Shown piece after piece: positions 18,001 to 42,248 of a DNA stretch of 64,000 nt. The notes under the pieces were generated by a model. It worked only from the letters and a program-made list of their open reading frames with translations, was not told the DNA's origin and did no database searches. The translations under genes were made by a program, and so were the position numbers. The first letter of the stretch is position 1, and each line of letters starts with the position of its first letter. Source of the stretch: Candidatus Omnitrophota bacterium (GTDB taxonomy: Bacteria > Omnitrophota > Gorgyraeia > Gygaellales > Profunditerraquicolaceae); assembly GCA_026387335.1 (NCBI GenBank), contig JAPLLX010000004.1, positions 189,485-253,484 of the forward strand, given 5' to 3'.

Positions 18001-19551
18001 TGTCACATCCATACCACCATCTCTGTAACTACCAAACGCGTAATAATGCGTCTCCGTCTTTATATTACTAATATCGTCAGGCCCGTTTTCATCTATTAAT
18101 GTTGCTACTTCTCTCGGTGTTACTTCAGTCTTGGCTTGATGTCCCATATCGAAAACAGTGCCAGAGGCAGCACCCATTGCGATGCCAAACGCTTCATAAC
18201 CTATAACGTTCCCGGCGAGATTAGCAAACTGCCGGCCAACATAAGGATTATTCTTAAATAAACTGGTATCTTTCAGCGCCTCATAGGCAAATACGCTGGC
18301 GCCGGCTTTGGCAGCGCCTAAAAGTGTTCCTCTTAAGGCACCCATCCCAATTGTAGAAAGAGTACTGTTTGGCTGGTAATAAGCAGTGGTTGCTCCGGAT
18401 AAGGCGGCGATTGTCACAGTACTTAATATTCCGGCGGAAGTAGGATCCATCCCGAAGTTCTGCACTGCTACGTTAGTCGCTGCCTGGGCAATTTGGCTAT
18501 AGAGCATTGCCTGGCCAAAAGAAGTAACTCCTTTACTTAATGCCTCGCCAGCACTAAGAGCAGATGCTGTTCCGGCTACTGAGAAATAGGAGTAGGCGGC
18601 TGGTATGGCGACAGAAGCAACCGTAATCCCTAACCCCAGCCACATATCCCCGTCAGAAGGTTCTTTAAATAAAGCAGAGACATCGGCATAGCCTTGCTTG
18701 TTGGATCTGGCGCCTAAGACTTGTTTGGCTTCGGCATCAGTCAAAGGGACAGTCCCCTGCGGGGACAGTCCCTGTATTAAGGCATAACCGGAAAAATCTT
18801 TAAGGAATTTCTCTATTGGCAGGAATTCTTCTTTATGTTCATCTAAGAAGTAAATTTTTTCACCGCTAATTTTAGTGATTAAAACATAGTGGTCGCCGTT
18901 TAGGTGAGCAATGAAAGGAGTTAAATCTGCGGATAACTCGGATAACTTAACCGGGTAAAGTTTAAGGCCGAAAAACTCTGAAGCTTTGGATAAGGCGTAA
19001 AGGGAATTTTTAATAACTTTGGGATTACCTTCCGGCTTGACTACGTCATTTAAGATATCTATGGTTAAGGCAAAAACCGCGATATCCTGCTCTTCTACCT
19101 TAACCCCTTTATAGCTTAAGTAGTCATAAAGCGACTTGGTACCGCATGGTTTACACACCAGCCAGTTAAACAACTCATCTATCCTCTGATTGGACATTTT
19201 CAGTGGTTTATCCAGGGTTATGGTCAGATTCTCTGAAACTTTTATAGCAGTTATGGGTTTATTGGCTATATCTTTGAGGATACTTTTTACTGCCTGAGGA
19301 ATGTTAAGATTTTGGACATTTTTAAGGTAATTTGGGGCAAATACGTTGTTGGAAGGAAGGCCAATAGCGGGTTTATTCCAGATTACGCGCCAGTCATATT
19401 CTACTGCCTGAGCTGCCTGTTCAGGCAAGAAGACTACGGCAACAACAAAAGCTGCCACGCGGATCCAAGGCTTAAAACTGGAGTGGAACTTTTCCTTGGC
19501 CGCTTCTTTGGTAACTGCCTTGTCTTCTATATTGGCTCTTGGCTTTATCAT
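1..19551 (-). CDS. Giant multi-domain membrane/surface protein, 5' part of the gene in window (start ATG about 19549-19551; ORF continues past position 1; at least 6,516 aa in window). Domains seen: N-terminal signal anchor + C39-like Cys peptidase, multi-TM Gly/Ala block, P-loop kinase-like domain, second papain-like segment, Gly-rich linker, LysM between TM helices, K/E-rich charged region, further TM helices
   Basis: Manual reverse-complement translation in the phase whose + triplets start at positions congruent to 1 mod 3. No TTA/CTA/TCA (minus-strand stops) were found across lines 1-1620 or in spot checks at 7.0, 9.7-10.2, 12.0, 15.0, 17.5 and 18.7-19.55 kb, while in-frame + strand TAA/TGA/TAG are frequent, the signature of antisense. 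The ORF track lists no minus ORF of 60 aa or more between 1505 and 19551, consistent with one ORF lacking an in-window stop. N-terminus reads MIKPRANIEDKAVTKEAAKEKFHSSFKPWIRVAAFVVAVVFLPEQAAQA... then ...NWLVCKPCGTKSLYDYLSYKGV...TPFIAHLNGDHYVLITKISGEKIYFLDE (C39-like Cys/His pattern). Confidence 0.85.
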   Translation of the reverse strand, partial: MIKPRANIEDKAVTKEAAKEKFHSSFKPWIRVAAFVVAVVFLPEQAAQAVEYDWRVIWNKPAIGLPSNNVFAPNYLKNVQNLNIPQAVKSILKDIANKPITAIKVSENLTITLDKPLKMSNQRIDELFNWLVCKPCGTKSLYDYLSYKGVKVEEQDIAVFALTIDILNDVVKPEGNPKVIKNSLYALSKASEFFGLKLYPVKLSELSADLTPFIAHLNGDHYVLITKISGEKIYFLDEHKEEFLPIEKFLKDFSGYALIQGLSPQGTVPLTDAEAKQVLGARSNKQGYADVSALFKEPSDGDMWLGLGITVASVAIPAAYSYFSVAGTASALSAGEALSKGVTSFGQAMLYSQIAQAATNVAVQNFGMDPTSAGILSTVTIAALSGATTAYYQPNSTLSTIGMGALRGTLLGAAKAGASVFAYEALKDTSLFKNNPYVGRQFANLAGNVIGYEAFGIAMGAASGTVFDMGHQAKTEVTPREVATLIDENGPDDISNIKTETHYYAFGSYRDGGMDVTKNISGNIIQEGGKSSAYVAPSTAYQGALYALQDMKGSLISQGVGLAVEYAASQGVFGSELKKHPNYSRLLGEPLGGIAGANANKLTWDQAAFNGLLSGGVSAGLNALGGDFDKVTDKNKWGLTRLQMEGVNWLGTATLYSAAGTIIAANKSTAELGEKSWAGYAGRLFNKRFEEFATNYVSLGGTSPVYTKGAGGWSEIQYIEKIAQLAGTSDFKANADYLMKQKGYTDWGKFIDDGNLSSLLPSASYSLVNYAKSTLHFASVNNLVGLGRDIIYPTFFPTVIKAKESGITSTINIKMVPAVLWGDTGLYQYFNEKDIVEYVSGYRSEFNGNPLSNKYDSQANKDFIKKNISISSNIDESVSLKLLLPETSAYNTNANSKPRDQAGNKKLSEDSYPAADYLDRAKKFKTSLQNSGPAAGVEATETEKWLTWVVKNAGSPFLDYAKSLYGPGSGVVVNVESASAEVNKMTGTVGVLVHNKDGQLSLDPNSLNYAKGAQWKVPEFAIRGKDNIKGQAYYADKYTGVRFDSSTYLGHRKEQSGEITIGDGNFYGDGAFIKEIINPGDTKKFEKIKDVNGVENDLTLRQLDYLYTFDVLGKQTFDAKLSYARGEYEQRYRQEIMSSKPADNFLESKLGGESLMTPVPKQDVLSALFDNKSIVAKTKGTIYDLGEFGGNPVLLVNGDLIIPTPKAGGEGKESPQTDMVALTRAGSFQDSNKIPMTTARGFGGWVANIDHQNGNIVGLDLSSLNFAKGAKWSGENGFEMVRDNSKGDNTPIAEGDRNTRLVTSYSVHKDGSITFNSLGIRPGGDKENKGILTIGVNDSTLSETYLKEKITERLYFNPELIKKIDKDFETGKTVLIEAAEKGEFTDAKGGKIKDSRLQAKLIGEIKNINSAEKLKEFLSNGVSYIISSWAAYRIGNEIPDEVIFGNAVQKGHSLDWEVARQTGKDTSEVVLKGNSPLVGQLAFKGTDAATSKEFNIRPIQHWGGPAPLVFSGAVNPSLSRGLENSASLYEKNGPLEGWKLQESTKDGVKESYLINDNDKEKKVKVTVAKDQAGKDIISVPWDDSKNELRVQNNSESLPKLSRDFTYEIDHERYQQNPTGPVYFSKSGILTGMDFDKEDKFKFDLVTEAQGIKYSGARTSKSYEINKDKTVETYEGVYKLVQDQKTKKYNLIDPASKVVIYDNVDVSKGRVIVAGLDFPDGMSLLRNVAINLGPDGKISHVNLHWIGANYNQKEAEISFKANGEIEGVGQLTETFLAKPYLKDSEPGSKIDTKNKDRIIINGVGSKAGVLHIVSSFANYAVQEKDKAGVWNWVTPKDKILFDSELQDRHQVIWALTNVKDGGKAGVGTSPIIGQELLVNKEDGIARPALLIKALPFMNEGMEGSTADKAFKDKVGILKEKGYLDKAAVIKGDKDPLYKTAVEKLQADLKVKTDGIWGQKTDAALNKDKYFVLGEKGETQVVKVKDRLGAVILPSEESSVPVMLGVGINGDVQYKVITQAEGLAYAAPKGFKMPWSLSTDEKKGVASITYLQSTKASGTIDFPNGQPSKNEMSQKNYSLKTSEEVYFTKEDGKEKFVTKKEMRENLEKPLKELEKSNETKKDEKIKGLLEKARKSLDKEDFNGTSKLLNSAIAIDAFLNFKARPQDDKVRIAFMQDLVNKGWATEDEIKSDIADLNSKTGLAEYMRTYSKKIGFYDISQLKGFNKAEAEKAGLTEEVYVKGKLNDEQKAVIKKAELLTRVDALNKTDKENTTSYSEYYQENAKKLGWNQWVDDYRSGKIATLPSNFAGFEKWVADIYQQHSDAQRSAVLQRITKIHNDTGDSRFDPGVNGEKLNTAINNLNKAIEGEEFKGKLSIAGISIPLEDTSEGKIKNYLKAGSSGYAAMIDILGAPLAYLIDKPNEWLGAEPNYWRNRLWEKADNLIKQRDQLLNGEIQASGGDLAKDALFWAMLGYPVGSLGRGVVATAKEIAPSLGSRLAARFGVESQAGKAAINLLANPYTISEVVTLVVPNVVSLCTTGEFLPRETNALLAIAGLATPVASKVLSSLIVEGATLASPFLAKVGYAMGTQAPLWGQINLTTAVIGNLVGLNETGTARALSFGEGLGIYGEGLRDGAAFGLALTGAGALVANGGIIKNTINNLSTALRINTESSIVRYGTSFALGAVSLPLLSTGLKTMSGEGYLLDNIQSSYTWVNVLTGGLIGLGIKGLPAATPAGLNLARAEYGAITGAGIKLTHDSLDAYRSGNNYTFGQAVASVFGGAAIGTLAASYLGTTKNIFSPTSRAGYMAERDFSLQALYSVPTKLFNSSVRGALTWLYVSPSFTVSGALWRGALVNMEHAIDGKPSVPWFAIEKRDASNNIVKGEYVDLFSSKQGQTELLSSFVYGPRSGVWMAPAIGILQTRASEKLSISENAALSIQKPFSNETLNHAWSLGVFMPGVVTGLKESVNYFGNTGKYSLASLSNLIDGNGLTPKDRAVFSTPESEFIQWAGFFRVPAAAPVMSKNERSIFGGITEMLTKRGRATIISPEEAKSNVRPDWMKPGASERIIPVDKAAEVTATGKIDSLIVGQVAYAKEGSKVFYRDGFLGRRVNSFEVTPEIKRAAETRIKSDYYNVAADPVINIYGGVKDKDQANMLEKMVLGARYVAGSVKPLVLSIFAPPSAGKSTAGIIAELGLIQNGTYGPKAKMLVVVEQSDTHADQVYDKTMGDVRRAAEKGNAFAKSIVDADRIVRWRVKDSDQPAINFADKSAVIVSEHDLQYLMGLREMPREQLSAHDKALTELLDKAVLTNTDYLDNPSLQISDGFDKISKEEFDSQKALVERAHKFLTETLNGELSLKSLDDKYEITRSRDKDGETIVDPAGNDALIEAFLRYSAGEKLEQERLDLDALRKTPEGERLVAALKASMVARAEVTGLDKLTAFDAERNKWVIIPLNPSGRAHDLRVANSLQAIADVVIHNARVRDTSRPENVEIPLNYEQVEIQGAGHAMVSFAKMLDTAEKMGAVATVLFAGAMTDRQKDTMRIVFGMDSVGEVSKPILDANLNVVGVNNVNNNAIFELGSKETSNKGKDVTIYVDTQKSEQHGDSQLSIGDFSAFYKDNTRFILDQRGIWQMVEVGRELKDAKPVSEVIKNSGRNNSPIEYVTEQIASGKGVKVLISRPNTYGIDINGVSDKAVLVAIADSKSELLPIFQGSRRLRPVSGSDFDSVDRVLIVRDLSGVDVKSLEGVKELEKLFGKNQDQADKQDLLHKERDLIRDAKFKINLLLGSLLGPKAMEKIAQVNRLEQGNDSVRQLQNVRGQADLTVEHLDTERDHGMKFLRDQWGQGDLRELYPEKPKTAQEMKAKAIVDEFILFRDAYSKIEKALRAELKNEYEGKPAYKQLTPEQVRAIFAKEFTGKDYPKFTSANMEYGVTVRGEKRGVPSAVPSEELGPVTFENFAKGQPALAEKFNNLPAETQALFVRGGYMVGRGGLNLAMQTVQLWDERERKEVNVFLNRIGLPELALPEADILITPEQSFDLAVNLAQRGYIDVSNPYRGVDSIVRVATLTSLAADKLAGTAFTPTEVERLQLGLDNPVEFLTRNLQKGNSSLESALIKFNAQRHSSIFKDKRTMGGLQQVAVAMGKTQSLIDLMPLVLPLGPTQVEAYRQLNLSGISSKVLGRLSIADYLFLNSDPLARGQLFATSTNAATRQAADLMNTFMQTQGVVKRDVLRRFVDNPQQEAQRLGLPPKEIENVAAAFRELLNSTSGKTVQYALVVETLKNKNLVNSKDIHTGLRKLGINPQFEYGLRFNDAENALVAQRTSQGQENVKFEDILINPQEHENAFFRLLGPDIASRLLGNGSSLFTRQQALEFINNIQSANPDDARLDNSLKILNGLTDDASLYLVFRALQPAQTFIAEQEFKAQGSTAVEKEMGSNWYGKDKGYEGVQVEIGPSGFLRGPDKTKNTSAQVYEPSVGEKNYTIKADSVDNFVITKDAQGKLSIRLNLAGHYNFGRGAHEAFHIAVKNIGSNPSNIVILSPNGRDIDAEATVTAQQNYANLLAEMGTLENRELSESDFSISELGVNEGLTRFLSMRALINSLNSAEDTERQNLLATESTTLGGFTGHANKVLKTEQTVDKVLNDITELFKKGELLGKIHSDVTEEKSLVDLKLNDLLEKMKKQMDTAAPVEEKAAVNDNTGGSSSISGPNAKVQILAGALSALTGARIVSSSIAETGAALEYIGKIVNRLFGAVARMLGGQKPDQTTSPLERRSPMPLPVAGTVVSGVGASSSVTRALTALDLSPASLLYAGKVIQFNTIATPNPVVGTGTGVAPPASSPTNSDSKFVGVKDIRAYKLGVIEANEFKSLAGSQSANKETSGSIRATSSPLNSGVFVSGIPTKTSSSPANNSTITDLEKAIKLLNRLLGQDYFRNNKDDRMMLEGLRQKDPTAYGTVLRAIQDRDFEKARSEMYGLIRSAVKGIMNVEDNIPHLKAVLMRWFNDSYFEDTTVNSITDEDITNRYVIGLSIIANYVKTAQLHPELQEGLSEEIIRELFNGIANGNIVAAVQKIVRKEIQELEENNERTHKKAKEELAGFFSKMQGVVKEEVRGLSTKVNDQGEEIVNLRKAIDDGDKSVLRAVEGIIQGFDGRLRIAEGKRGIQPADCLPGSFYTVDSVLAAEIEEAERKLGRGLLLNELNQIAKGRLQYYLLSPKIIESMDSNTLGNLNLIVVQSGHAFLVRGKYANGDLMVTEYNNKGEVTETRPVSIESVALYNGKIVSIIHWNNVSAVENYKKENNLDDKDIREIKKEEMDEVSGVIGYIQELNGSSGGGSAQGGTGTGAAAGNGGAAAGPKGTGKGKGGFGEGPEAANFNLTNGASEAYGIVDWLNIISEDRKRVSGLAPPTVILSSSSAVNIKNILSNISNAYLTAGIFLFVSLVLPIQSFAATAANNILTVGKGDTWGHIVLEYFGKSGMKLWGEKGRAIETWRQVKGANQSYSAMDHINAGQQIDVSKILTVPGVPPAPQAPKGEESILSKILDYFTTNPKMIWAIAIVAIIILGLIAVKIYLNHRAEKVRKAAEEAAKLATQQEAERKAAEERDRLAKETVTKKVTEDAKKTPEAADKANVEGIKDEKIVDEKGHVSAKDNAGVQAEVTAENKQDPVNATASKDLFSTANDLLILGNSEYDAEEYFKALATYQKVEGILIKYSLEVKDQLTNAVISEESKAALIKQALELNNKLYEIEVKIAGCSSKITSEATNFANQINPGKANGGSSPVRELPVSANIPIETVTVSSSPINKLVTTSFLGTLRNILEKGRSYFRLEASITAQPKETGVGVTNLSLAPPLARIAASVSNFLIQMYRVIIGGGKNGKPNVEISGRNEKDRIRVFEGRISRSSLKSYSNELRGQGHYRTETPSLRLLEARFVKPVSNHAKGYNGLSPPCAALIAILLNSAVVISLLLVLSFTNSDINNLINLTRPLAFSVAGELAAYVVVNGGAGALLQGLTPLVAAITTIIEGGVPCVLSMLMILGLITLLTSPRTTLLLPQLVRTPAVISGSSSLTMLWELSTRATAVPIVGRRSSALRASSSVSRLAMQGDVFPSTKSTARTTKNRDGSVREPSLTVGSSPVFSSPIKKSSKTYWLKIVTVVALLVISAFTAIYHIHGRHERIQPTIEALRKADPAIFTKEDKVFKDFKSLVKYLMEIARVNRNLELGADYCYLGKDGWHLKIGAIGEEDGVVIKNIPGSILLHFHTSNGELSLEDLYSTLNRQSIIVSPDEVLVFKDEHKEKHNKFRGIFERAGNQAEALRRGKKVSEEKYLGKFMDLLKEHTSEEDHNGIYQDIFVQAGGEYLETIENIRVALGLKIIKFTWTSSSPAASSSVNVTYNSQGRLVKYASGEAITETIDGIEVITITKQASEVLAETARIKKNLEEFDFLGITKLSAEARKAEASKALGLEPDASKKTIKTMYRGLARLFHSDTSPVKVDGIYIQTLNSIKETLEESSSSSANKALDMAILNIIE

Positions 19552-19715: not shown

Positions 19716-19825
19716 CGTCGGTAATTCGGCAGCCCGGCTATCCTTTGATAGGCACTATTTTTGTTTCTTTGGGACCCGCGGCTTTGCGCCCCCGGATTTC
19801 TCCGGGTTTGCCATTTCGTTACTTA
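19716..19825 (-). ncRNA. c-di-GMP-I (GEMM-I) riboswitch aptamer in the 5' leader of the giant gene
   Basis: Minus-strand sequence ...AAAUGGCAAACC-CGGA-GAAA-UCCG-GGGGCGCAAAGCC-GCGGGUCCC...GGAUAGCCGGGCUGCCGAAUUACCGACGG matches the hallmark GEMM-I elements as I recall them from V. cholerae Vc2: GGCAAACC, a P1b hairpin with GAAA tetraloop, GGGACGCAAAGCC, and the 3' ...GUUACCGAUGG closing segment. A U-rich tract (UUUUUCUUUUU, + coords about 19690-19705) follows as a possible expression platform. Confidence 0.7.
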
Positions 19826-19841: not shown

Positions 19842-19869
19842 AGTATAACACATAGCTCGTCGCTGTCAA
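19842..19869 (-). promoter_or_regulatory. Sigma70-type promoter for the giant gene and riboswitch (-35 TTGACA, 16-nt spacer, -10 TATACT)
   Basis: Minus-strand read: TTGACAgcgacgagctatgtgtTATACT. + strand tgtcaa at 19864-19869 and agtata at 19842-19847. Predicted TSS about 19834, immediately upstream of the riboswitch. Confidence 0.55.
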
Positions 19870-20056: not shown

Positions 20057-20121
20057 TAGACTGGACATTTTTAGGTGATTCTCGATATAGAATGGACATT
20101 AGGAAGTACTAGATTGGACAA
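20057..20121 (+). repeat. Three direct repeats of TAGAnTGGACA(T/A)T with 30- and 22-bp spacing; candidate transcription-factor binding sites
   Basis: tagactggacattttt, tagaatggacattagg, tagattggacaatcta seen in sequence. A fourth copy, agattggacattt, lies at about 32896-32908 next to the promoter of the 31003..32883 gene. Confidence 0.5.
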
Positions 20122-20199
20122 TCTAATGAGATATAAATGCTCATTTATTTATGTTAGACTTTATGATTTATAACGTCAATTATAGTAGAAAGTAGATTA

Positions 20200-24366: not shown

Positions 24367-24420
24367 GTTAATCTTAAAGTGTCCCCTAATTAAGGGACAC
24401 TTTTGCTTTGAGTTGAGAAC
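24352..24420 (-). terminator. Nested stem-loop immediately downstream of an flp pilin gene and upstream of tadB; candidate attenuator/terminator
   Basis: Outer inverted repeat agggacggttctcaa / ttgagaaccgtccct with inner inverted repeat aaagtgtccc-ctaattaa-gggacacttt. Confidence 0.5.
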
Positions 24421-24425
24421 CGTCC

Positions 24426-27754: not shown

Positions 27755-28619
27755 CTTCGGTCTTTCTTAAGGTATTATCGGTTAAGGTCTTCTGTTCATA
27801 ATCCTGCTGTAACCCCATAGCTTTTAAGCCGCCAAAACTAAAGAGCTGCTCTAATGCCGGGAAATTATATGTGTGGTTTACGCTATCTGTTTCCTGATAA
27901 TTGGCGCAATACCAGGGAATGTTCATTGGTTGAGCGCAGGCGCTGCAGCTTGCTGAAGGGTCCCGGCTGCATTCTTTTACGCAGGCATCCGAATCCACAA
28001 TCATCCGGCACTGTTTAACCGCGCTGCCATAATCTACGATTTCTCCGGCGCAGGAATCAATGATACGGATATTTTTACTAGGTTGGGAGCAGATGGTGTC
28101 TTCCGGTTCTCCGGTATTAGGATTAATTGACGTATTCTCTTCTCCTAAACACTCTCCGTCACCTGTATTCCAGACATTTCCGCCGCCGTAGATCACTTGA
28201 TACCTGCCTAAGCTGCCTTCCGGGACATTAGTTTCATCCCTAAACCCGGCAGTGGTATAGGTAAATTCCTTGCCGTTGATATTTACCGTTACCCGGGGTA
28301 ATTCGCTCTCCGTATCAGCGGTTTCGCCTAATCTATAGTCGCGGGCAATGCCTCCGGCTGAGCCGGTCATCGGAGTAACCGAACCTACGCCAAAAGTATC
28401 GGAAGGATTAGGGATATGTTTATCGCTGATTACTATATTAGAAATAGAGGTGCCCGGCTGGTTTACTGCGTGGGTTAAAGACTTCCTAAATGCCTGCTGC
28501 ATCATTTTCTGCTGGTAATTATACCTTAAGCCGTAACTAATAAGAACACCTAAAAGCATAATGATTATTGCCCCAAAAATCGCTACTTCTAATAAAGATT
28601 CTCCCTCTTTTTTCATCAT
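27591..28619 (-). CDS. TadE/TadF-like pseudopilin (342 aa)
   Basis: MMKKEGESLLEVAIFGAIIIMLLGVLISYG... N-terminal pilin-like segment followed by a Cys-containing globular domain. Confidence 0.55.
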   Translation of the reverse strand: MMKKEGESLLEVAIFGAIIIMLLGVLISYGLRYNYQQKMMQQAFRKSLTHAVNQPGTSISNIVISDKHIPNPSDTFGVGSVTPMTGSAGGIARDYRLGETADTESELPRVTVNINGKEFTYTTAGFRDETNVPEGSLGRYQVIYGGGNVWNTGDGECLGEENTSINPNTGEPEDTICSQPSKNIRIIDSCAGEIVDYGSAVKQCRMIVDSDACVKECSRDPSASCSACAQPMNIPWYCANYQETDSVNHTYNFPALEQLFSFGGLKAMGLQQDYEQKTLTDNTLRKTEDASGITTTDNIDWKTQTKRKIITKPYGSTSAATNTEEVVSEVSQEKVDSRNSGW

Positions 28620-28927
28620 TCCTCCGGCGAGATATGCTCGGTTCCGGAACGGTGCTCTTCCTGAGAATTAATATCAGTAGTTGTTGTAGTTTTATATCTA
28701 TCGTCCACCTCAACAGTATTAGTCTGCGTAGTTATATCGCTTTTCTGCGTAATGGTAATATCTGAAACCGTATTTTTAGGTTCATAATGCTGCGCGCTTA
28801 ACTCATCCGCGCCCTGGCGCAACCTTCCCTGAAGGCCCCGGCGGATATAAACCTGCATTGCCAATAACGCGGCAATAATAGCAAATATGACTATGGCGTA
28901 TTCCAGGACACTTTGGGCTTTGCGCAT
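28616..28927 (-). CDS. Flp-type pilin paralog with Thr-rich C-terminal extension
   Basis: MRKAQSVLEYAIVIFAIIAALLAM...TTTTDINSQ. Confidence 0.65.
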   Translation of the reverse strand: MRKAQSVLEYAIVIFAIIAALLAMQVYIRRGLQGRLRQGADELSAQHYEPKNTVSDITITQKSDITTQTNTVEVDDRYKTTTTTDINSQEEHRSGTEHISPEE

Positions 28928-28928
28928 T

Positions 28929-29255
28929 TTATTTCTCCCGGGTGGAAACTGAAGCCGAGCTTCCGCTGCCTGTAGTAACCGCGCTGAAATCGCTACTCTG
29001 GCCGCCGCCCTTTTCTATTCTCTTCCTCTGGGTTATCTCTGACTGCCGGCTCACCGCCGAAGAGGTCTTAATCCCTTTAAGCGGGTCTATTTCTTCAGCA
29101 TCTTTTTGGTTGCCTGCTTCATCTGCTGCTATCTTGACCACGGATTGTATCCCCCGGCGAAAATACATGGCCATACCTGCTAAAGCCAGGGCTACCAAAC
29201 CCAATACTATGGCATATTCTAAAATACTCTGGGCTTTGCGCATTTTAATCCGCAT
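28929..29255 (-). CDS. Flp-type pilin paralog
   Basis: MRKAQSILEYAIVLGLVALALAGMAMYF... Confidence 0.65.
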   Translation of the reverse strand: MRIKMRKAQSILEYAIVLGLVALALAGMAMYFRRGIQSVVKIAADEAGNQKDAEEIDPLKGIKTSSAVSRQSEITQRKRIEKGGGQSSDFSAVTTGSGSSASVSTREK

Positions 29256-29592
29256 CCGGCGCTGAGCCGGTCTTTTCCCATCCGCTACGGGTAGTTGTCT
29301 GGTCTATGGATGTATCCGGAAAGCCTGTAGCAGAGGACCCGCTTTTAACCTCAATAGTATCTGACTCCCGGTAATAAGGATCATATTGTTGTTTGATCTT
29401 CGTAAAATTAGGAACACCTTTATCTATAGCAGTATTTTTTATCTCGGAGATCAAATAATCTGCGCCCCCTTTATATCTAGCCTGGAGGCTGCGTTGGATA
29501 TAGATACGCACGGTCATAATTATCGCTACTACCGCAGCCAAACACAAAGCAACTTCCGTTAAACTCTGCCCCCGAGTTTTTACTCTGCGCAT
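29245..29592 (-). CDS. Flp-type pilin paralog
   Basis: ...RGQSLTEVALCLAAVVAIIMTV... Confidence 0.55.
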   Translation of the reverse strand: MRRVKTRGQSLTEVALCLAAVVAIIMTVRIYIQRSLQARYKGGADYLISEIKNTAIDKGVPNFTKIKQQYDPYYRESDTIEVKSGSSATGFPDTSIDQTTTRSGWEKTGSAPDAD

Positions 29593-29598
29593 TTTTTA

Positions 29599-29910
29599 CT
29601 ATTTCGCTTCAGTATTCCAGGTTTCGTTTTCTGACCTGGTCACTGTTTCCCCTTGGGATACCTGGCTGGTAGTGCTTCCGGTAGAGGTATCTCGTGTCTC
29701 AGTAGTTACAGTAGTGCCGCCACCCACTGTCGTACGGGTAGAATTAAAATTTGAAGCATCAAACTGCTTGCCGATCTGGTCGCTAGACTCCCTTAGCCTT
29801 CCCTGGACCCCTCTTTTCATATAAGCATTTATTGCCAATAAGGCGCCGATTACTGCCGCGATAACCAAGGCGTATTCCAAGGTGCTTTGGGCTCTTTTTC
29901 CCCTAAACAT
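29599..29910 (-). CDS. Flp-type pilin paralog with Thr/Ser/Gly-rich C-terminal region
   Basis: MFRGKRAQSTLEYALVIAAVIGALLAINAY...GGGTTVTTETRDTSTGSTTSQ. Confidence 0.65.
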   Translation of the reverse strand: MFRGKRAQSTLEYALVIAAVIGALLAINAYMKRGVQGRLRESSDQIGKQFDASNFNSTRTTVGGGTTVTTETRDTSTGSTTSQVSQGETVTRSENETWNTEAK

Positions 29911-29934
29911 TGTTCACCCCCTGCTCGCTAAATT

Positions 29935-30321
29935 TTATTTACTTGGGCTTATGTCCTCTTCCGCGCCGGTGATCTGCTGGGTGCCGGTGCGCTTAATGGT
30001 TGCGCCGCTGACTTCTTTTTTACCGCCGGTGCTGGAAGCTGTTTCTGTTTCTGTCCCTTCGCTGGACTCAGTATTAAATTGATATTCGCCTTTTCTGATA
30101 TAGTATGGCTCATATTGTTTTTCCGTGCCGAATAAAGTCGCGGTTTTAGCTTCGGCCTCTGTTCCCTGCAAGGCTACAGTAGCCGCATTGTCTGAGCCGG
30201 ACTTTATCTTAGCCTGCATGGACCTGCGCATATAAATCTGCATGGCGCTGAAAACACCGATAACCACCGCGATTAAAAGCGCGTATTCCATAGTACTCTG
30301 GGCTCTTTTCCCCCTTAACAT
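29935..30321 (-). CDS. Flp-type pilin paralog
   Basis: MLRGKRAQSTMEYALLIAVVIGVFSAMQIYMRR... Confidence 0.65.
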   Translation of the reverse strand: MLRGKRAQSTMEYALLIAVVIGVFSAMQIYMRRSMQAKIKSGSDNAATVALQGTEAEAKTATLFGTEKQYEPYYIRKGEYQFNTESSEGTETETASSTGGKKEVSGATIKRTGTQQITGAEEDISPSK

Positions 30322-30343
30322 CTTTCACCTCCCTTAAAAACTA

Positions 30344-30580
30344 TCACTTCGCTTGGGTAAAATTACTGCTGGCGTCGGTGATCTTGGTCGCCGAAGAATC
30401 CATCACCTTTTCTACCGCCGGTTTTAATTTAGCGTAAGCGAAAACAATGATTGCCCCGACAATAGCCGCAAATACCGCGATATATTCTAATGTGCTTTGG
30501 GCCTTATTTCTCCGCGACATCTTTCTACCTCCTTGATTATTTATTGGTAACAACCGGTTGAGCATTGATCTGGTCTTCAA
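30344..30580 (-). CDS. Flp-type pilin paralog; the true start is probably the internal M (MSRRNKAQSTLEY...) at about 30520, which follows a GGAGG
   Basis: ...NKAQSTLEYIAVFAAIVGAIIVFAY... The track ORF overlaps the next pilin gene. Confidence 0.6.
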   Translation of the reverse strand: MKTRSMLNRLLPINNQGGRKMSRRNKAQSTLEYIAVFAAIVGAIIVFAYAKLKPAVEKVMDSSATKITDASSNFTQAK

Positions 30581-30695
30581 TTATTTTAAGGTTGGCCTGG
30601 GCCGAGCGCTGCACATAGATGCTCATCGCCGCCAGTGCCGCCACCACTACGGAAATAATCAATGCGTATTCTAAAATACTCTGCGCCTTTTTCAT
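30537..30695 (-). CDS. flp: Flp-type pilin (52 aa), MKKAQSILEYALIISVVVAALAAMSIYVQRSAQANLKIIEDQINAQPVVTNK; candidate major pilin
   Basis: Unlisted small ORF found by manual translation. Canonical short Flp architecture. Confidence 0.7.
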   Translation of the reverse strand: MKKAQSILEYALIISVVVAALAAMSIYVQRSAQANLKIIEDQINAQPVVTNK

Positions 30696-30711
30696 CTCTA
30701 TACCTTCTCGC

Positions 30712-30885
30712 TTATTTAGTTATCTGCGTCGCTGCTTTCTGGAAAAGGCCTTCTTTTTCACTTGAGCCCTGGATCGCCTCTTTAACCTTAGGCAAAAAAG
30801 TGCTGAAAGATAAAATCGTTAAACACGCTATTATGGCGAATAAAATGAAGTATTCTACCGCAGCCTGCCCCGTAGCCATACGCAT
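30712..30885 (-). CDS. flp: Flp-type pilin (57 aa), MRMATGQAAVEYFILFAIIACLTILSFSTFLPKVKEAIQGSSEKEGLFQKAATQITK
   Basis: Unlisted. G/QAAVEY motif. RBS ggaggtatcaggATG, partly within a cctgata/tatcagg hairpin. Confidence 0.6.
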   Translation of the reverse strand: MRMATGQAAVEYFILFAIIACLTILSFSTFLPKVKEAIQGSSEKEGLFQKAATQITK

Positions 30886-31002
30886 CCTGATACCTCCATA
30901 TCAGGGTTAACCCCTGCCGTCATTATTTAAGCGTTATATTTAAATAATATCACCTTGCCCAACAAGCGTCAAGACTATTAAAACCTGCACGGAAAACGCT
31001 TT

Positions 31003-32883
31003 CTATTCAGTAGTCAGATATAACTTGTGCCCGCTGGATAAAACAACCTCTTTCTCGTTTATCCGGCGGCATAAATAGCTTAAGTCTTTGTCAAAAGCAT
31101 ACGCCGGAGGTAGGACAAATTTCATTAAACAGCTTCTTTTCTTTCGGGTTGGTTCCGCGATCAAATTATAGAACCGTTCTCTGGTGGCTGTAAACTCCTT
31201 ATCTTCATATCCTGAGGGCAATAGATGCCAGCGCACATAGGCATCTATTGCCGCCAGGTAGCTGGCGAACAAGTCTTTAACCGTTGAAACCTGAGCCAGC
31301 CCTAAGTTTATATTTTCCGCGCTAAAATAACGCTGGGAATTGGCAGTATAAGTAAAAAGCTCTATTTTACGGCTGTAATCCTGAAAGGCCTCTTCCAGAT
31401 TAGGCCAATGATTAAAATATAGAGCAACCAGCTCTTCGGCCTTTTTAGTCCCGACGCTAAAATTGCTTAATAAGACCAAGCGGGTTTTTTCAGTAAGGCT
31501 TGTTTTTAGAACGCAGCCGTTAAGGACTATCTGTTTAGCTTTAGTGGGTTGCCTTAACTCCATCTCTATATCGGCGATATAAAGATCTTTATTCTGCTCC
31601 TCCAGGCGAAAGAGTCTAAACTCGCCTAGATTCTTGACTCTGCGGCATTCGGTAAATTGCCAGGGCCAGACGCCGAAAACAAAAAAACGTTTTTTAGCCT
31701 GATTTACCGGCAAAACCTCTAACTCTTCAAATTTGTTTCCCGAAATCACCAGGTTAGTGATCGCATTCCCTCGACCATCCAGCGCTTCCAAAAGATTAAA
31801 GAATTCCTGCGAAGGCATATCATATCCGGGGGCGTTAAAAATTACCAGAGGATAATCTTCGTTGAAATATTGGTTGATATACTTTTTTAGGTTATGGATA
31901 GGAGAGGCAAAATCATACGGGATGTGCGGGGAAGACCAGACCGAATACATTGAGGCATCCAGATAGAGATTGGCTCCGTCGGAGAGGATGACCTTGACGC
32001 ATCTGGCCTCTTGTAAGCTTGAGGCGATGATCCGGGAAATATCCAGATTAATGACTTTGATATTCTCTATCTTTTCTAAATAACCGGATAATTTATCTAT
32101 AAATGCTTTTTCGGCTTTTTCCTGAAACAAGGGCAGATAAATGAGGTTTTCCACTAAATCTTCCAGATTGCCTGGCGCATCAGGAAGCCGGCTTTTAATT
32201 GCTGCGGCAATGAGTTTGCTTGCGCCTATAATATAGTCTGCCGCCTCCAGCAATATAATTCCGCTGTCTTCTATTTGATGAAATTTTTCAACATTGGCTA
32301 CTGGATGGGCTGTTGCTTCTACTTGCGCTTTCCTCTCTTCCTCTTCCCGAGCCTTGCTTAATTCTTCTTCTTTAGCTTTTCGCTCTGCTTCTTCCCGGGA
32401 TTCTTTAGCTAATCTTTCCTCTTCAGCAATCCTCGCCCATTTCTCTTCTTCAATCTTTCTGGCTACTTCTTCCTCGGATTTGAGTTTTTCTTCTTGCGCC
32501 AAAAGCTCTTCTTGTTCTTTTTTGACTACTTCCTCTCTAGCCTTTTTTTCAGTTTCTTCTTTTACTTTCCTCTCTTCTTCTTCCCGAGCTTTTTCCTCTT
32601 CTTCCTGGCCTGTTCTCTCTACTTGCCGGACAGATGCATCCTCAAGCAGAATAGGTAAATTAGGCATAGCAATATGGCGCCTCTTCTTTTTAGGAGTCCT
32701 ACCTACGGGCGCGCTTAACCCGGCTTCTTTTATAATCATATTGATGCTGGATTTAGATAGTTCTATCTTGAAATTATCCAAAACAAGCGCGGTCAACTTA
32801 CGGCAGCTTAAGGAAGGGCTATTGTTCTTTTGCTCTAGAATAAAATCTCTTACTTCCGGTTTAATTTTGTAAATTACACCCAT
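31003..32883 (-). CDS. Hypothetical protein: N-terminal transposase-like HTH, long E/K/R-rich coiled-coil segment, large C-terminal domain of unknown function
   Basis: MGVIYKIKPEVRDFILEQKNNSPSLSCRKLTALVLDNFKIELSKSSINMIIKEAGL (HTH), then about 120 aa of EEERKAKEE repeats, then roughly 400 aa with no family recognisable by eye. Confidence 0.5.
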   Translation of the reverse strand: MGVIYKIKPEVRDFILEQKNNSPSLSCRKLTALVLDNFKIELSKSSINMIIKEAGLSAPVGRTPKKKRRHIAMPNLPILLEDASVRQVERTGQEEEEKAREEEERKVKEETEKKAREEVVKKEQEELLAQEEKLKSEEEVARKIEEEKWARIAEEERLAKESREEAERKAKEEELSKAREEEERKAQVEATAHPVANVEKFHQIEDSGIILLEAADYIIGASKLIAAAIKSRLPDAPGNLEDLVENLIYLPLFQEKAEKAFIDKLSGYLEKIENIKVINLDISRIIASSLQEARCVKVILSDGANLYLDASMYSVWSSPHIPYDFASPIHNLKKYINQYFNEDYPLVIFNAPGYDMPSQEFFNLLEALDGRGNAITNLVISGNKFEELEVLPVNQAKKRFFVFGVWPWQFTECRRVKNLGEFRLFRLEEQNKDLYIADIEMELRQPTKAKQIVLNGCVLKTSLTEKTRLVLLSNFSVGTKKAEELVALYFNHWPNLEEAFQDYSRKIELFTYTANSQRYFSAENINLGLAQVSTVKDLFASYLAAIDAYVRWHLLPSGYEDKEFTATRERFYNLIAEPTRKKRSCLMKFVLPPAYAFDKDLSYLCRRINEKEVVLSSGHKLYLTTE

Positions 32884-32888: not shown

Positions 32889-32945
32889 CCCCAGATTGGA
32901 CATTTCCCTATACGAATAATATAGTTTATGAACCAGATTATGTCA
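32889..32945 (-). promoter_or_regulatory. Sigma70-like promoter (TTGACA-17-TATATT) for the 31003..32883 gene, with a TGGACA motif copy between -10 and the RBS
   Basis: Minus-strand read: TTGACAtaatctggttcataaacTATATTattcgtatagggaaatgtccaatctgggggttgtATG. Confidence 0.5.
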
Positions 32946-32950
32946 AGTTA

Positions 32951-32997
32951 AATAGGGACAGCGACCGTTTTTTAAACGGTCGCTGTCCCTATTAAAG
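32951..32997. repeat. Hairpin repeat family copy 1 (AATAGGGACAGCGACCGTTT-loop-AAACGGTCGCTGTCCCTATT); terminator-like, downstream of the DUF192 gene
   Basis: Perfect 20-bp stem seen in sequence. Copies 2 (33345-33410) and 3 (43186-43248) share the same stem sequence. Confidence 0.7.
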
Positions 32998-32998: not shown

Positions 32999-33340
32999 TT
33001 ACTTTAAAATTAGTTGGTCGCCGAGGCCGGTGGAAGTGAATTTTATTGTGCCAAGGGGAAGCTCGATAACAAACCTGCTTTGCGCAGAGATAGGGCTTAA
33101 ACGAAACGGCATAAGCTTAGGAATCGCCTTAATTACTGTATTGTTTTTACTTACAAACAGGAGATCGATCGGAAAACGCATAAAACAGGTGTGCACTGAA
33201 TTACAGGGGTTCAGCACAAGGGCCTGGCCATAATGAAATTCTCTCTTGCCCAATAAACCCTTAGCCCGTTTTAAGAAAGTATCAGCCATAATGGCGTTGT
33301 CAGCCAATAGGGTTTTGCGCGTCGCGTTAAATATTTTCAT
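32999..33340 (-). CDS. DUF192 (COG1430) family protein
   Basis: ...GLLGKREFHYGQALVLNPCNSVHTCFMRFPIDLLFV..., characteristic of DUF192. Confidence 0.65.
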   Translation of the reverse strand: MKIFNATRKTLLADNAIMADTFLKRAKGLLGKREFHYGQALVLNPCNSVHTCFMRFPIDLLFVSKNNTVIKAIPKLMPFRLSPISAQSRFVIELPLGTIKFTSTGLGDQLILK

Positions 33341-33344
33341 TTTT

Positions 33345-33410
33345 ATTAGGGACAGCGACCATTTTTCCCAGTTAACCTTAGAAGAAAAATGGTCGCTGTC
33401 CCTATTTATC
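33345..33410. repeat. Hairpin repeat family copy 2 (TAGGGACAGCGACCATTTTT...AAAAATGGTCGCTGTCCCTATT, loop about 27 nt)
   Basis: Seen in sequence between the cpaEF stop and the DUF192 start. Its translation yields the DSDHF...EKWSLSLFI artefact ORFs. Confidence 0.7.
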
Positions 33411-37233: not shown

Positions 37234-38132
37234 TTAGATAAAGGCATCTTTTCTTTGCTTAAGCCTCTGTATATTTCAACATACTCTGTAGCCGGTGCGT
37301 CTTTGTCCTGGAACTTAGCTAATTCATTCTGGGCCGGCATAACATATCTGAATAATGTCTCCCAACTGGCGGGTTGGGTTGCCTGCATTTGAGAATCCGC
37401 CGGTGAACGCAGGGTGAGCCTCAACTTACCCTGTTCCTGGACAAAAGCAATGAGATTGGCTTCTTGAGGACCAAGGGCAAGGGTGATCAGCGGAGAATTT
37501 TCGCTTCTTCTCTCCGTCTCTTTCTTCCCGGCGCTGGCTGCGGAGATCGAACCTGTATCCTGTCCGACGGCCAAAACCAGGACATTCTGGAATAAAGGCA
37601 TCACCGCCATCTGACTTACCTGTTTACCGTCGGCAGTCTGCACCGGCACAGGGACAAGCGCCATTACATCAACATAATCTCCGGGTTTGATCATTCCGCC
37701 CAGTGCCGAAATATTATCTACTGATATGGTGATCGCCCTTTTGCCGACTGGCGTGCCTTCGGCTAAACCGCCTAATTGCCTGGGTTGGACTAATTTGCTT
37801 AAAGATATCTGTTCGCCTTTGGATATGGCTACAACCGCGACCATCCCTAAAATCCTATCTGCCGAAGAAACTGCCTGCGGCTGGAGATATTGGTCGGGGA
37901 TAATAATTGTCTCCAGGCTTTCCGCCGCGATAGCTGCGCCGCGGGGGATGTCTTTATTGGCTATCAATACCTTGACTTCGTGCTTGGATATATTTTTTTC
38001 CAGGCTGGCTATCTTTTTTTTGGACTCATCAATCACCTGCTGGCGCTGCTGGTCAATATAGGCCTTAGTCATAAATACGGCCATTAAAGCCAGGACAACA
38101 CCGATTATTATGATGATCTTTTGCCTTTGCAT
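37230..38132 (-). CDS. cpaB: Flp pilus assembly protein CpaB/RcpC-like (SAF domain)
   Basis: N-terminal TM anchor; ...VKVLIANKDIPRGAAIAAESLETIIIPDQY...; positioned next to the secretin. Confidence 0.65.
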   Translation of the reverse strand: MQRQKIIIIIGVVLALMAVFMTKAYIDQQRQQVIDESKKKIASLEKNISKHEVKVLIANKDIPRGAAIAAESLETIIIPDQYLQPQAVSSADRILGMVAVVAISKGEQISLSKLVQPRQLGGLAEGTPVGKRAITISVDNISALGGMIKPGDYVDVMALVPVPVQTADGKQVSQMAVMPLFQNVLVLAVGQDTGSISAASAGKKETERRSENSPLITLALGPQEANLIAFVQEQGKLRLTLRSPADSQMQATQPASWETLFRYVMPAQNELAKFQDKDAPATEYVEIYRGLSKEKMPLSK

Positions 38133-42244: not shown

Positions 42245-42248
42245 ATAT

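What the first reader, a model, noticed from the sequence alone, without database searches (positions are those of the whole stretch)
31003..32883. Transposase-like HTH + E/K-rich coiled coil + large unknown domain protein embedded between the pilin array and the assembly genes
The N-terminal 55 aa resemble the HTH of IS-element transposases, followed by about 120 aa of EEERKAKEE-type repeats and a roughly 400-aa C-terminal domain of no obvious family. The gene has its own strong promoter containing a TGGACA motif. It is bracketed by the genome's hairpin-repeat element. It may be a domesticated transposase acting as locus regulator or a structural, ruler-like component.
Basis: inference. Interest (0 to 1): 0.5.

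Follow-up and report, generated by a model that had tools for sequence, protein, structure and literature searches.

The report
Transposase-derived regulator of pilus/giant-gene locus
This gene is not a jumping element but a fixed, phylum-wide Omnitrophota protein built from an old Tn5-like transposase; it most likely acts as a DNA-binding switch, through a conserved 12-base box, for its own gene and for the neighbouring giant gene of these putatively predatory nanobacteria.

Summary
The 626-aa ORF (31003-32883, minus strand) is real. It has three parts: a transposase-type HTH (aa 1-66), a 98-aa E/K-rich single helix, and a 427-aa C-domain with no sequence family.

It is not an IS. No terminal inverted repeats flank the gene in 78 loci. 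It occurs once per Tad locus, and dN/dS is about 0.1. It holds one syntenic position (RcpC-secretin-CpaE/F-DUF192-gene-pilins-TadG-TadB/C) in at least 103 species genomes, nearly all labelled Omnitrophota.

The linker varies from 0 to 597 aa and is usually Pro-rich, so a conserved ruler role is unlikely.

- It lies 21 bp before the ATG in 72 of 79 loci.
- A second copy often sits about 63 bp upstream, beside the -35.
- Helically phased clusters (21/31/42 bp) lie upstream of the giant gene, including in this window (20058-20122).

Best reading (confidence about 0.55): a domesticated transposase that binds these boxes, autoregulates, and controls the giant gene. Binding and catalytic status are untested. 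The hairpin repeats bracket DUF192, not this gene.

The parts
31003..32883 (-). Target ORF, 626 aa: HTH + spacer + Tn5-like domain. Identical to the NCBI MAG protein NTW18_04230 [Candidatus Omnitrophica].
32686..32883 (-). N-terminal three-helix HTH (aa 1-66), nearly invariant across the family (SKSSIN..IKEAGLS.P.GR).
32314..32607 (-). E/K-rich single long helix (aa 93-190), part of a linker (aa 67-199) that varies in length and composition.
31006..32286 (-). Conserved C-domain (aa 200-626): helical subdomain, RNase-H-like beta/alpha core with a beta-rich insertion, then a helical C-terminus. Closest fold is Tn5 transposase. Candidate motif residues are D309, A351-P-G-Y-D355 and Y489..W493..E498..K506.
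32918..32946 (-). Sigma-70-type promoter of the target (TTGACA-17-TATATT).
32893..32904 (-). Proximal box AATGTCCAATCT, starting 21 nt before the ATG and downstream of the -10. This is the putative operator.
20058..20122 (-). Three direct box copies, one mismatch each, spaced 22 and 31 bp. They lie 189-253 bp upstream of the giant gene's -35.
19842..19869 (-). Promoter-like site of the giant gene (TTGACA-16-TATACT, with extended TG).
19724..19821 (-). c-di-GMP-I-GGC riboswitch aptamer in the giant gene's leader.
1..19551 (-). Giant ORF (at least 6517 aa, runs off the window) with an N-terminal Peptidase_C39 domain. Putative second target of the box regulon.
30944..30972 (-). Separate promoter-like site of the pilin array (TTGACG-17-TATTAT). 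It has no box.
28616..30885 (-). Array of about 8 small Flp/class-III-signal pilin-like genes immediately downstream of the target.
32948..32996 (.). REP-like hairpin (GGGACAGCGACC stem) between DUF192 and the target's promoter. It occupies the place where related loci carry the distal box.

Best explanation
The gene encodes a domesticated, Tn5/IS4-like transposase-derived DNA-binding protein. It is a fixed, vertically inherited part of the Omnitrophota Tad-like pilus/secretion locus.

**Proposed mechanism (inferred)**
1. The near-invariant N-terminal HTH recognises the 12-bp box AATGTCCAWWCT. The Tn5-like module may contribute to binding.
2. At its own promoter, one box abuts the -35 and one lies between the -10 and the ribosome-binding site. 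They are about 63 bp apart (six helical turns), which would give autorepression by a dimer or oligomer held together through the Tn5-like domain.
3. Clusters of 2-3 helically phased boxes lie about 200 bp upstream of the giant gene's promoter. Through them the same protein would control the giant gene, and so couple it to the pilus locus.
4. The variable linker (here an ER/K single helix of about 14 nm) is a spacer between the HTH and the Tn5-like module, not a conserved functional domain.

**Shown:** the anatomy, the family, the synteny, the absence of IS features, the fold resemblance, and the box with its distribution and phasing.

**Inferred:** that this protein is what binds the box, the sign of regulation, and the loss of catalysis.
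For: **A conserved host gene**
- The C-domain profile finds 561 50%-identity cluster representatives.
- The family is found in at least 103 GTDB species genomes; of the 80 loci kept, nearly all are labelled Omnitrophota, with a few labelled otherwise.
- In 86 loci the order RcpC-secretin-CpaE/F-DUF192-(Y1_Tnp)-gene-...-TadG-TadB/C is nearly universal; small pilin-like genes directly follow the gene wherever gene calls were available.
- dN/dS against a 93%-identical orthologue is 0.07 (HTH), 0.09 (C-domain) and 0.135 (linker).

**Not an IS**
- The best 16-nt inverted match between the flanks averages 11.8, against 11.5 in shuffles, over 78 loci. None reaches 14/16.
- Only two MAGs among the 80 fetched loci carry two copies, on separate contigs.

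**Transposase ancestry**
- The HTH hits HTH_32, HTH_33 and HTH_Tnp_Tc3_2 below threshold.
- With the full AF2 model (pLDDT 83), the top five Foldseek PDB hits are all Tn5 transposase or its inhibitor (best E 6.5e-5, probability 0.99).
- A YREK-like motif, Y489-x2-[H/R]-W493-x4-E498-x7-K506, is 95-100% conserved at its Y, W, E and K positions (position 492 is H or R).

**The box**
- There are 139 exact matches in 1.27 Mb of related loci, against about 0.6 expected from base composition (my estimate).
- 72 of 79 loci have a copy (at most one mismatch) at -44..-12 from the ATG. 48 sit exactly at -21.
- 32 loci have further upstream copies, peaking 61-65 bp from the proximal box.
- 18 of 35 loci with sequence beyond TadC carry at least two boxes there.
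31 carry Tad genes or the target, and about 29 show ORFs of at least 400 aa (up to 3978 aa), many running off the contig, starting mostly about 470-700 bp downstream.
- Box spacings peak at 21, 31 and 40-42 bp (Rayleigh R 0.42 at period 10.5-11, p < 2e-4). This points to protein binding on one face of the DNA.
- In this window there are 6 matches, against 0.68 expected, all at these two places.
Against: - No experiment or computation links this protein to the box. Another regulator could bind it.
- The pilin promoter next to the gene carries no box in this window, so a role as regulator of the pilins is not supported here.
- D309 (99.6%), D/E355 (93%) and E/D498 (97.5%) stay acidic, so a catalytic role cannot be excluded.
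- About half of the loci with sequence beyond TadC show fewer than two boxes there.
Confidence: 0.55

Rival explanations
1. A still-active, domesticated Tn5-like recombinase. It would use the AATGTCCAWWCT boxes as recombination or cleavage sites to invert, excise or otherwise rearrange DNA of the pilus/giant-gene locus. This would be programmed variation, analogous to Piv-type pilin inversion.
For: - Acidic residues D309, D/E355 and E/D498, plus Y489, W493 and K506, are highly conserved in a YREK-like context.
- The gene is inverted relative to the Tad genes in 8 related loci: L005, L032, L035, L039, L043, L045, L058 and L066.
- Boxes occur at both ends of the gene-pilin-TadB/C block.
- Inverted box copies exist in L015, L017, L035 and L066.
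Against: - Boxes are overwhelmingly direct repeats and sit at promoters.
- The boxes in L035 cluster upstream of the inverted gene, and DUF192 abuts its other end.
- The locus is collinear between the window and a 93%-identical relative.
- The position expected for the second catalytic Asp, read against the IS4 N3 motif D-x-G-Y (from memory), is Ala351 in 217 of 238 members and never D or E among the residues listed. D355 itself is only 93% acidic.
Confidence: 0.12
2. The protein binds DNA, but the boxes belong to another regulator. This protein would have a different DNA-related role, for example tethering or organising the locus, or acting on sites not yet identified.
For: - The protein-box link rests only on position and co-occurrence.
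- The locus neighbourhood encodes other regulators: a FIST-HisK-RR/GGDEF operon and a c-di-GMP-type riboswitch.
Against: - The box sits at a fixed distance from this gene's ATG in 72 of 79 loci across the whole family, which is the classic signature of autoregulation.
- This is the only HTH protein found at a fixed position across the related loci examined.
- Extreme conservation of the HTH parallels extreme conservation of the box.
Confidence: 0.2
3. A structural, scaffold or ruler component of the Tad machine that uses the long helix as a spacer. The HTH-like fold would not bind DNA.
For: - The gene is embedded among structural genes.
- It has a 94-residue helix.
Against: - The linker is 0-597 aa and of unrelated composition across the family, and in the shortest members the C-domain directly follows the HTH.
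- It has its own promoter-like site and no Pfam match to any Tad or membrane-protein family.
- Both of its folds (HTH and transposase-like) are those of nucleic-acid-binding proteins.
Confidence: 0.05
4. A simple insertion of an active IS (IS4 family) into the Tad locus.
For: - Transposase-type HTH and Tn5-like fold.
- IS200-like Y1_Tnp genes and REP-like hairpins occur nearby.
Against: - No TIRs in 78 loci.
- The same syntenic position is held in genomes only 37-47% identical.
- Strong purifying selection.
- The gene sits on long contigs (up to 646 kb), with 1-5 contigs per protein cluster. True Tn5 relatives sit mostly on 1.5-2 kb contigs with many members per cluster.
Confidence: 0.01

Closest known systems
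Tn5 (IS50) transposase and the IS4 family of DDE transposases
   Same: - Shared layout: N-terminal helical DNA-binding part, RNase-H-like core with a beta-rich insertion, then a helical C-terminus.
- A YREK-like motif with identical spacing from the preceding strand (LLLTS / LVLLSN, then 15 residues, then Y..[R/H]W).
- Like Tn5 transposase and its inhibitor Inh, it may regulate its own promoter (established knowledge for Tn5; inferred here).
   Different: - No detectable sequence homology: hhalign probability 0.5% and no PF01609 hit.
- No TIRs, and fixed synteny with one copy per Tad locus.
- An extra N-terminal HTH of a different (HTH_32/33/Tc3-like) type, plus a variable spacer.
- Ala at the position expected for the second catalytic Asp. 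That motif reading is from memory and is a lead only.
Transposase-derived transcription factors (eukaryotic FHY3/FAR1, CENP-B and others; bacterial TnpB-derived TldR repressors) - from general knowledge
   Same: A transposase DNA-binding module re-used by the host to bind fixed cis-elements and control host genes. The binding sites are plausibly descended from the element's ends.
   Different: - This one derives from a prokaryotic DDE (Tn5-like) transposase.
- It is conserved across a bacterial phylum.
- It is tied to a pilus/secretion and giant-gene locus.
- I found no described bacterial DDE example of this kind in the searched library.
Piv recombinase of Moraxella (an IS110-related enzyme that inverts a pilin segment) - from general knowledge
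   Same: A transposase-related protein encoded next to pilin genes.
   Different: - Different catalytic family (DEDD versus DDE).
- Piv acts on inverted sites flanking an invertible pilin segment. Here the boxes are mostly direct repeats at promoters, and no invertible segment was found.
The conserved T2SS/Tad-like locus upstream of Omnitrophota giant genes (West-Roberts et al. 2023, doi 10.1101/2023.11.21.568195; Seymour et al. 2023, PMC10066038)
   Same: It is the same locus: Rotamase_2 PPIase, RcpC, GspD-like secretin, GspE-like ATPase, GspF-like TadB/C, many small class-III signal peptide genes, and the giant gene downstream.
   Different: Term searches of those papers ('transposase', 'helix-turn-helix') returned nothing on this HTH/Tn5-like gene, and the passages read mention neither the box nor the riboswitch.

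Membership tests
IS4/Tn5-family insertion sequence (active mobile element) | Terminal inverted repeats flanking the transposase gene | tested here: not met
   Best 16-nt inverted match between the 150-nt flanks averages 11.8 against 11.5 in shuffles over 78 loci, and none reaches 14/16. No credible IR pair surrounds the window gene.
IS4/Tn5-family insertion sequence (active mobile element) | Multiple or variable genomic locations (mobility) | tested here: not met
   Same syntenic slot in 86 loci. One copy per Tad locus. Found on contigs up to 646 kb.
IS4/Tn5-family DDE transposase (protein family) | Sequence match to DDE_Tnp_1 (PF01609) or to a Tn5-family profile | tested here: not met
   No Pfam transposase domain hits any of 48 members at E <= 0.1. 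hhalign against a 101-sequence Tn5-family alignment gives probability 0.5%.
IS4/Tn5-family DDE transposase (protein family) | RNase-H-like catalytic fold with a beta insertion domain, similar to Tn5 | tested here: met
   [not shown]
IS4/Tn5-family DDE transposase (protein family) | Intact D-D-E triad | tested here: inconclusive
   D309 is 237/238. Position 351, where a D-x-G-Y motif would place Asp, is Ala in 217/238 and never acidic among the residues listed. D/E355 is 222/238 and E/D498 is 232/238.
IS4/Tn5-family DDE transposase (protein family) | Y-(2)-R-(3)-E-(6)-K signature | tested here: inconclusive
   The family shows Y489-(2)-[H 116 / R 78]-W493-(4)-E498-(7)-K506. This is similar, but has 1-2 residue shifts and a variable R position. 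The alignment is manual.
Canonical Tad/Flp pilus components (TadZ/CpaE, TadA/CpaF, RcpA/CpaC, RcpC/CpaB, TadB/C, Flp, TadE/F/G) | Homology to one of the known components | tested here: not met
   No Pfam or NCBIfam hit to any Tad family. All canonical components are encoded by other genes of the locus.
HTH transcription regulator with autoregulation | DNA-binding HTH domain | tested here: inconclusive
   Sub-threshold hits to HTH_32, HTH_33 and HTH_Tnp_Tc3_2. A confident three-helix bundle in AF2.
HTH transcription regulator with autoregulation | Conserved operator at its own promoter | tested here: met
   A box with at most one mismatch lies at -44..-12 in 72 of 79 loci. A second copy beside the -35 is seen in the close relatives inspected, and the two are about 63 bp apart.
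HTH transcription regulator with autoregulation | Demonstrated binding of the protein to the operator, and an effect on transcription | not testable with these tools
   Needs EMSA, footprinting, a reporter assay or ChIP/DAP-seq.
ER/K single alpha-helix (SAH) spacer | Long helix with alternating E and K/R runs and no hydrophobic heptad seam | tested here: met
   aa 93-190 are 40% E, 27% K+R and 13% hydrophobic, with a best a/d hydrophobic fraction of 0.32. AF2 gives a single helix 95-188. It is not conserved in the family.

The most novel reading that the evidence does not exclude
The protein is a still-active, host-captured Tn5-like recombinase. Its recognition sites are the AATGTCCAWWCT boxes, and it carries out programmed DNA cleavage or rearrangement at the Tad/giant-gene locus, switching the predation apparatus on or off or varying it. 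The inverted gene orientation in 8 lineages would be a fossil of that activity.
Probability: 0.12. Interest if true: 0.85.

Novelty: new variant of a known kind. Interest (0 to 1): 0.62.

Why it matters
Omnitrophota are widespread, uncultivated, ultra-small bacteria thought to be predators or parasites. Their Tad-like locus and adjacent giant genes (here at least 6,500 aa, elsewhere over 30,000 aa) are the main candidates for the attack machinery, and nothing is known about how they are controlled.

This analysis provides three things:
1. An undescribed, apparently Omnitrophota-restricted protein family that appears to be a bacterial DDE-transposase domestication. I found no described bacterial example in the literature searched.
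2. A precise 12-bp cis-element with helical phasing. It links that gene to the giant gene and can be tested directly by EMSA, by reporters in E. coli, or by a box census in complete genomes.
3. A second regulatory layer on the same giant gene: a c-di-GMP-type riboswitch, with a neighbouring GGDEF operon.

Together these make regulation of the giant genes experimentally approachable without cultivating the organism.

Tried and rejected
**Sequence searches that found nothing useful**
- Pfam, NCBIfam, PHROGs, PADLOC and PDB-sequence searches of the protein gave only low-complexity artefacts such as TolA and MAP7.
- hhalign of the family against the Tn5 sequence and against a Tn5-family alignment was not significant, so no residue-level mapping of the DDE triad was possible.
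- The exhaustive profile search lists only the top 150 hits, all family members. Any remote transposase relatives among the 561 hits could not be seen.

**Structure searches with problems**
- The afdb50 fold library was unavailable.

**Hypotheses tested and rejected**
- TIR search around the gene was negative, both in the window and in 78 loci.
- Comparison with a 93%-identical relative showed a collinear pilin array, with differences only as linker indels. This gives no support for shuffling.
- The idea that the hairpin repeat brackets the gene is rejected. It brackets DUF192.
- Coiled coil is rejected in favour of an ER/K single helix.

**Left unresolved**
- Some paired-box metagenome loci lie inside ordinary ORFs or in gut and other non-Omnitrophota-like contigs (L101, L139, L160, and the satellite-like L113). 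These were not explained and are treated as unrelated or chance.

**Literature**
- Searches found no description of this gene.
Full report

The ORF at 31003..32883 on the minus strand encodes 626 aa. It lies inside a Tad-like locus that reads, on the minus strand:
- SurA/PpiC-like PPIase (38133-39038)
- RcpC/CpaB (37230-38132)
- secretin fused to TonB_C (35575-37233)
- a ParA/CpaE-like ATPase fused to CpaF/TadA (33411-35570)
- DUF192 (32999-33340)
- the target gene
- about 8 small pilin-like genes (28616-30885)
- unknown genes, then a TadG-like gene (25152-27356)
- TadB and TadC (23491-24366 and 22614-23480)
- Fic, then an OprB porin
- a giant ORF that runs off the window

- AF2 (pLDDT 83) predicts a three-helix N-terminal bundle (aa 9-53).
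- A disordered stretch follows, then one uninterrupted helix (aa 95-188).
- The C-domain is confidently folded.

The whole protein matches no Pfam, NCBIfam or PDB sequence family. The only hits are compositional ones to TolA and MAP7.

The N-terminal 70 aa alone give sub-threshold hits to three transposase-type HTH families: HTH_32 (E 0.006), HTH_33 (0.017) and HTH_Tnp_Tc3_2 (0.02). The same three families recur in 24, 21 and 6 of 48 relatives.

Three details needed correction.
- The E/K segment has no hydrophobic heptad seam and looks like an ER/K single alpha-helix.
- The hairpin repeats bracket DUF192, not this gene.
- TGGACA is not part of the promoter. It is the reverse complement of a conserved box (section 4).

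**2. The family and where it lives**

The protein is identical to a hypothetical protein of a Candidatus Omnitrophica MAG. At least 250 word-indexed homologues exist, and the best 120 all have E < 1e-133 at 36-93% identity.

An exhaustive profile search with the C-domain finds 561 50%-identity cluster representatives, 287 of them below 1e-30.

A scan of GTDB species genomes finds 103 loci; of the 80 kept, nearly all are labelled Omnitrophota. A few are labelled Planctomycetales, and two short contigs, labelled Margulisiibacteriota and Eubacteriales, are probably mis-binned.

I ran tblastn with the window's Tad proteins on 86 loci. The order RcpC-secretin-CpaE/F-DUF192-gene-...-TadG-TadB/C is nearly universal, down to members only 37% identical (gene tables). 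In the loci with gene calls, small pilin-like genes directly follow the gene.

There are three variations on this order:
- An IS200-like Y1_Tnp gene sits between DUF192 and the target in about 24 loci.
- The target alone is inverted in 8 loci.
- In four loci (L051, L076, L077, L084) the gene lies directly upstream of RcpC-secretin-CpaE/F. L076 is a second copy in the MAG that also carries L007.

The flanks contain no terminal inverted repeats in 78 loci.

Against a 93%-identical orthologue, dN/dS is 0.07 (HTH), 0.09 (C-domain) and 0.135 (linker). The only length differences are indels in the E/K repeats.

True Tn5 relatives in the same database sit mostly on 1.5-2 kb contigs with many members per cluster, as repeated elements do. 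This family sits on contigs up to 646 kb, with 1-5 contigs per cluster.

**3. What the C-domain is**

With the full model, Foldseek against the PDB gives five top hits, and all are Tn5 transposase or its N-terminally truncated inhibitor (E 6.5e-5 to 3.5e-2; about 430-450 aligned columns for the full-length chains, 323 for the inhibitor).

Two independent methods thus point to a DDE-transposase fold closest to Tn5/IS4, but the relationship is remote. hhalign against Tn5 alone, or against a 101-sequence Tn5-family alignment, is not significant.

By eye, the region TRLVLLSN-(15 residues)-Y489-x-x-[H/R]-W493-P-N-L-E-E498-...-K506 parallels Tn5's KWLLLTS-(15 residues)-Y319-T-H-R-W323-R-I-E326-...-K333. 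In this region Y489, W493, E498 and K506 are 95-100% conserved.

D309 is 237/238 conserved, in a hydrophobic-Y-L-D-G-Q context.

After the next strand the sequence reads L-F-M-A351-P-G-Y-D355. From my memory of IS4 motifs (a lead, not a test), the second catalytic Asp sits in a D-x-G-Y/F motif. Read that way, it has become Ala in this family (217/238, never acidic among the residues listed), while D355 is only 93% acidic.

I could not inspect model coordinates, so the state of the DDE triad is unresolved. I lean towards an inactive enzyme.

**4. The conserved box: the main new result**

I aligned the upstream regions of close relatives. This revealed AATGTCCA(A/T)(A/T)CT just before the ribosome-binding site of the target gene, with a second copy abutting the -35 of a conserved TTGACA-17-TAnnnT promoter.

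Across all fetched loci the box is exact in 75 of 88. Further counts:
- In 80 protein-anchored loci (1.27 Mb) there are 139 exact matches. I estimate about 0.6 expected from base composition.
- 72 of 79 loci carry a copy with at most one mismatch at -44..-12 from the ATG, and 48 sit exactly at -21.
- The second copy peaks 61-65 bp upstream, which is six helical turns.

Further copies cluster just beyond TadC, upstream of the giant gene. This holds in 18 of 35 loci with enough sequence. Examples are L001 (20022, 20053, 20115) and L003, where the giant gene lies on the other side and the box lies close to its upstream region.

In this window the exact proximal copy is at 32893-32904 (-).
- Three one-mismatch copies at 20058-20122 (-) lie 189-253 bp upstream of a TTGACA-16-TATACT promoter-like site (19869..19842).
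- That promoter is followed by a c-di-GMP-type riboswitch and then the giant ORF's start at 19551.
- The window holds 6 matches against 0.68 expected, and 0 of 100 shuffles reach 6.

A scan of metagenome contigs for two boxes 6-36 nt apart used no protein information.
- 31 contain Tad genes or the target within the short stretches fetched.
- About 29 have ORFs of at least 400 aa (up to 3978 aa), many running off the contig, starting mostly about 470-700 bp downstream.
- Some hits lie in unrelated contexts and remain unexplained.

Box-to-box spacings peak at 21, 31 and 40-42 bp, with empty valleys between (Rayleigh R 0.42 at period 10.5-11; p < 2e-4 against uniform). Phasing of this kind is the signature of a protein bound to one face of the DNA.

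**5. The mechanism I commit to**

The protein is a transposase-derived regulator.
1. Its HTH is almost invariant across the family, like the box, and recognises the box.
2. At its own promoter, two boxes flank the RNA-polymerase site. A dimer or oligomer, assembled through the Tn5-like domain as Tn5 transposase itself dimerises, would repress transcription.
3. The phased box arrays upstream of the giant gene's promoter bring that gene under the same control, in series with the riboswitch.
4. The linker is only a spacer. Across 217 members it is 0-597 aa (median 88). It is Pro-rich in 107 of 172 long linkers and E/K/R-rich in 26.

What is shown and what is inferred:
- Shown: the anatomy, distribution, synteny, selection, lack of IS features, the fold match, and the box with its placement and phasing.
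- Inferred: that this protein binds the box, that it represses itself, and the direction of its effect on the giant gene.

Overall confidence is about 0.55. I put about 0.95 on 'fixed host gene, not an IS', about 0.7 on 'DDE-transposase ancestry', and about 0.6 on 'binds the box'.

**6. Rivals**

- An active recombinase acting at the boxes (0.12). It is supported by the conserved acidic residues and by the gene's inversion in eight lineages. It is weakened by the direct-repeat, promoter-centred arrangement of boxes, the collinearity of close relatives and the Ala at the expected second Asp.
- The boxes belong to another regulator and this protein does something else with DNA (0.2).
- A structural or ruler component (0.05), contradicted by the linker's variability.
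- A simple IS insertion (0.01), refuted.

**7. Comparison with what is known, and novelty**

The locus is the conserved T2SS/Tad-like cluster already reported upstream of Omnitrophota giant genes (West-Roberts et al. 2023; Seymour et al. 2023). Term searches of those papers ('transposase', 'helix-turn-helix') returned nothing on this gene, and the passages read mention neither the box nor the riboswitch.

Transposase domestication into DNA-binding regulators is a known kind, mostly in eukaryotes. In bacteria the cases I recall are TnpB-derived and HUH-derived. The searched literature holds no bacterial DDE (Tn5-like) case tied to a pilus or secretion locus.

I therefore rate this a new variant of a known kind, with interest 0.62. 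It gives a concrete and testable handle on how the giant genes of these uncultivated bacteria are regulated.

Noticed in passing
window 1-19551 (-): A giant ORF of at least 6517 aa runs off the left end of the window. It has an N-terminal hydrophobic segment and a Peptidase_C39 domain (E 6e-8). It matches the 'giant genes' reported downstream of this locus in Omnitrophota. In L001 the called product is 30,621 aa.
   Followed up: partly
window 19724-19821 (-): A c-di-GMP-I-GGC riboswitch aptamer (RF03167, 66.9 bits, E 1e-13) lies in the leader of the giant ORF. It sits between a TTGACA-16-TATACT promoter-like site (19869..19842) and the start codon.
   Followed up: partly
window 39528-43184 (+); also L005 and L087: A FIST sensor, a histidine kinase and a response regulator with a GGDEF domain form an operon divergent from the Tad locus. 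The arrangement is conserved in related genomes. Together with the riboswitch it suggests c-di-GMP control of the giant gene.
   Followed up: no
window 32948-32996, 33342-33408, 43188-43241: Three copies of a REP-like hairpin (stem GGGACAGCGACC; 6 stem matches against 0.11 expected). Two bracket the DUF192 gene. The first occupies the place where related loci carry the distal box.
   Followed up: partly
L001 9305-9787, L006 9321-9809, L005 11780-12262 and about 20 other loci: An IS200-like Y1_Tnp gene of about 160 aa (possibly RAYT-like) sits at the same position, between DUF192 and the target, in about 24 of 80 related loci. It is absent from the window. This may relate to the REP-like hairpins there.
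   Followed up: no
L005, L032, L035, L039, L043, L045, L058, L066: The target gene is inverted relative to the flanking Tad genes while keeping its position. In L035 and L066 an extra inverted box lies between the two direct boxes in the now-divergent intergenic region.
   Followed up: partly
window 33411-35570 (-) and 35575-37233 (-): Two unusual fusions in the Tad machinery. A ParA/CpaE-like ATPase is fused to the CpaF/TadA secretion ATPase (719 aa). The secretin carries a C-terminal TonB_C domain. Both are conserved in related loci.
   Followed up: no
window 19187-19198 and 19309-19320 (-): Two further one-mismatch box copies lie inside the first 370 nt of the giant ORF. I did not determine whether they are functional or chance.
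   Followed up: no
L001 20040-20200: Palindromes GGGACTGTCCC lie next to the boxes upstream of the giant gene. They share a TGTCC core with the box and resemble the window's REP stem. The significance is unknown.
   Followed up: no
window 24352-24427: A 38-nt-arm perfect-junction palindrome (82% complementary) overlaps the first codons of TadB (23491-24366, minus strand) and extends into the gap towards the upstream 191-aa gene (24580-25155). It is a different sequence from the REP-like hairpin.
   Followed up: no
window 20635-22255 (-); L087 20408-21959: A Fic/DOC protein (with a small HTH_17 gene in L087) and an OprB-family porin are inserted between TadC and the giant gene in this lineage. 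Many relatives lack this insertion.
   Followed up: no
L101, L139, L160, L113 (metagenome paired-box hits): Some paired-box matches lie inside ordinary ORFs of gut and other contigs (L101, L139, L160) or, in L113, in a satellite-like tandem array. They appear unrelated to the Omnitrophota loci and are unexplained.
   Followed up: partly
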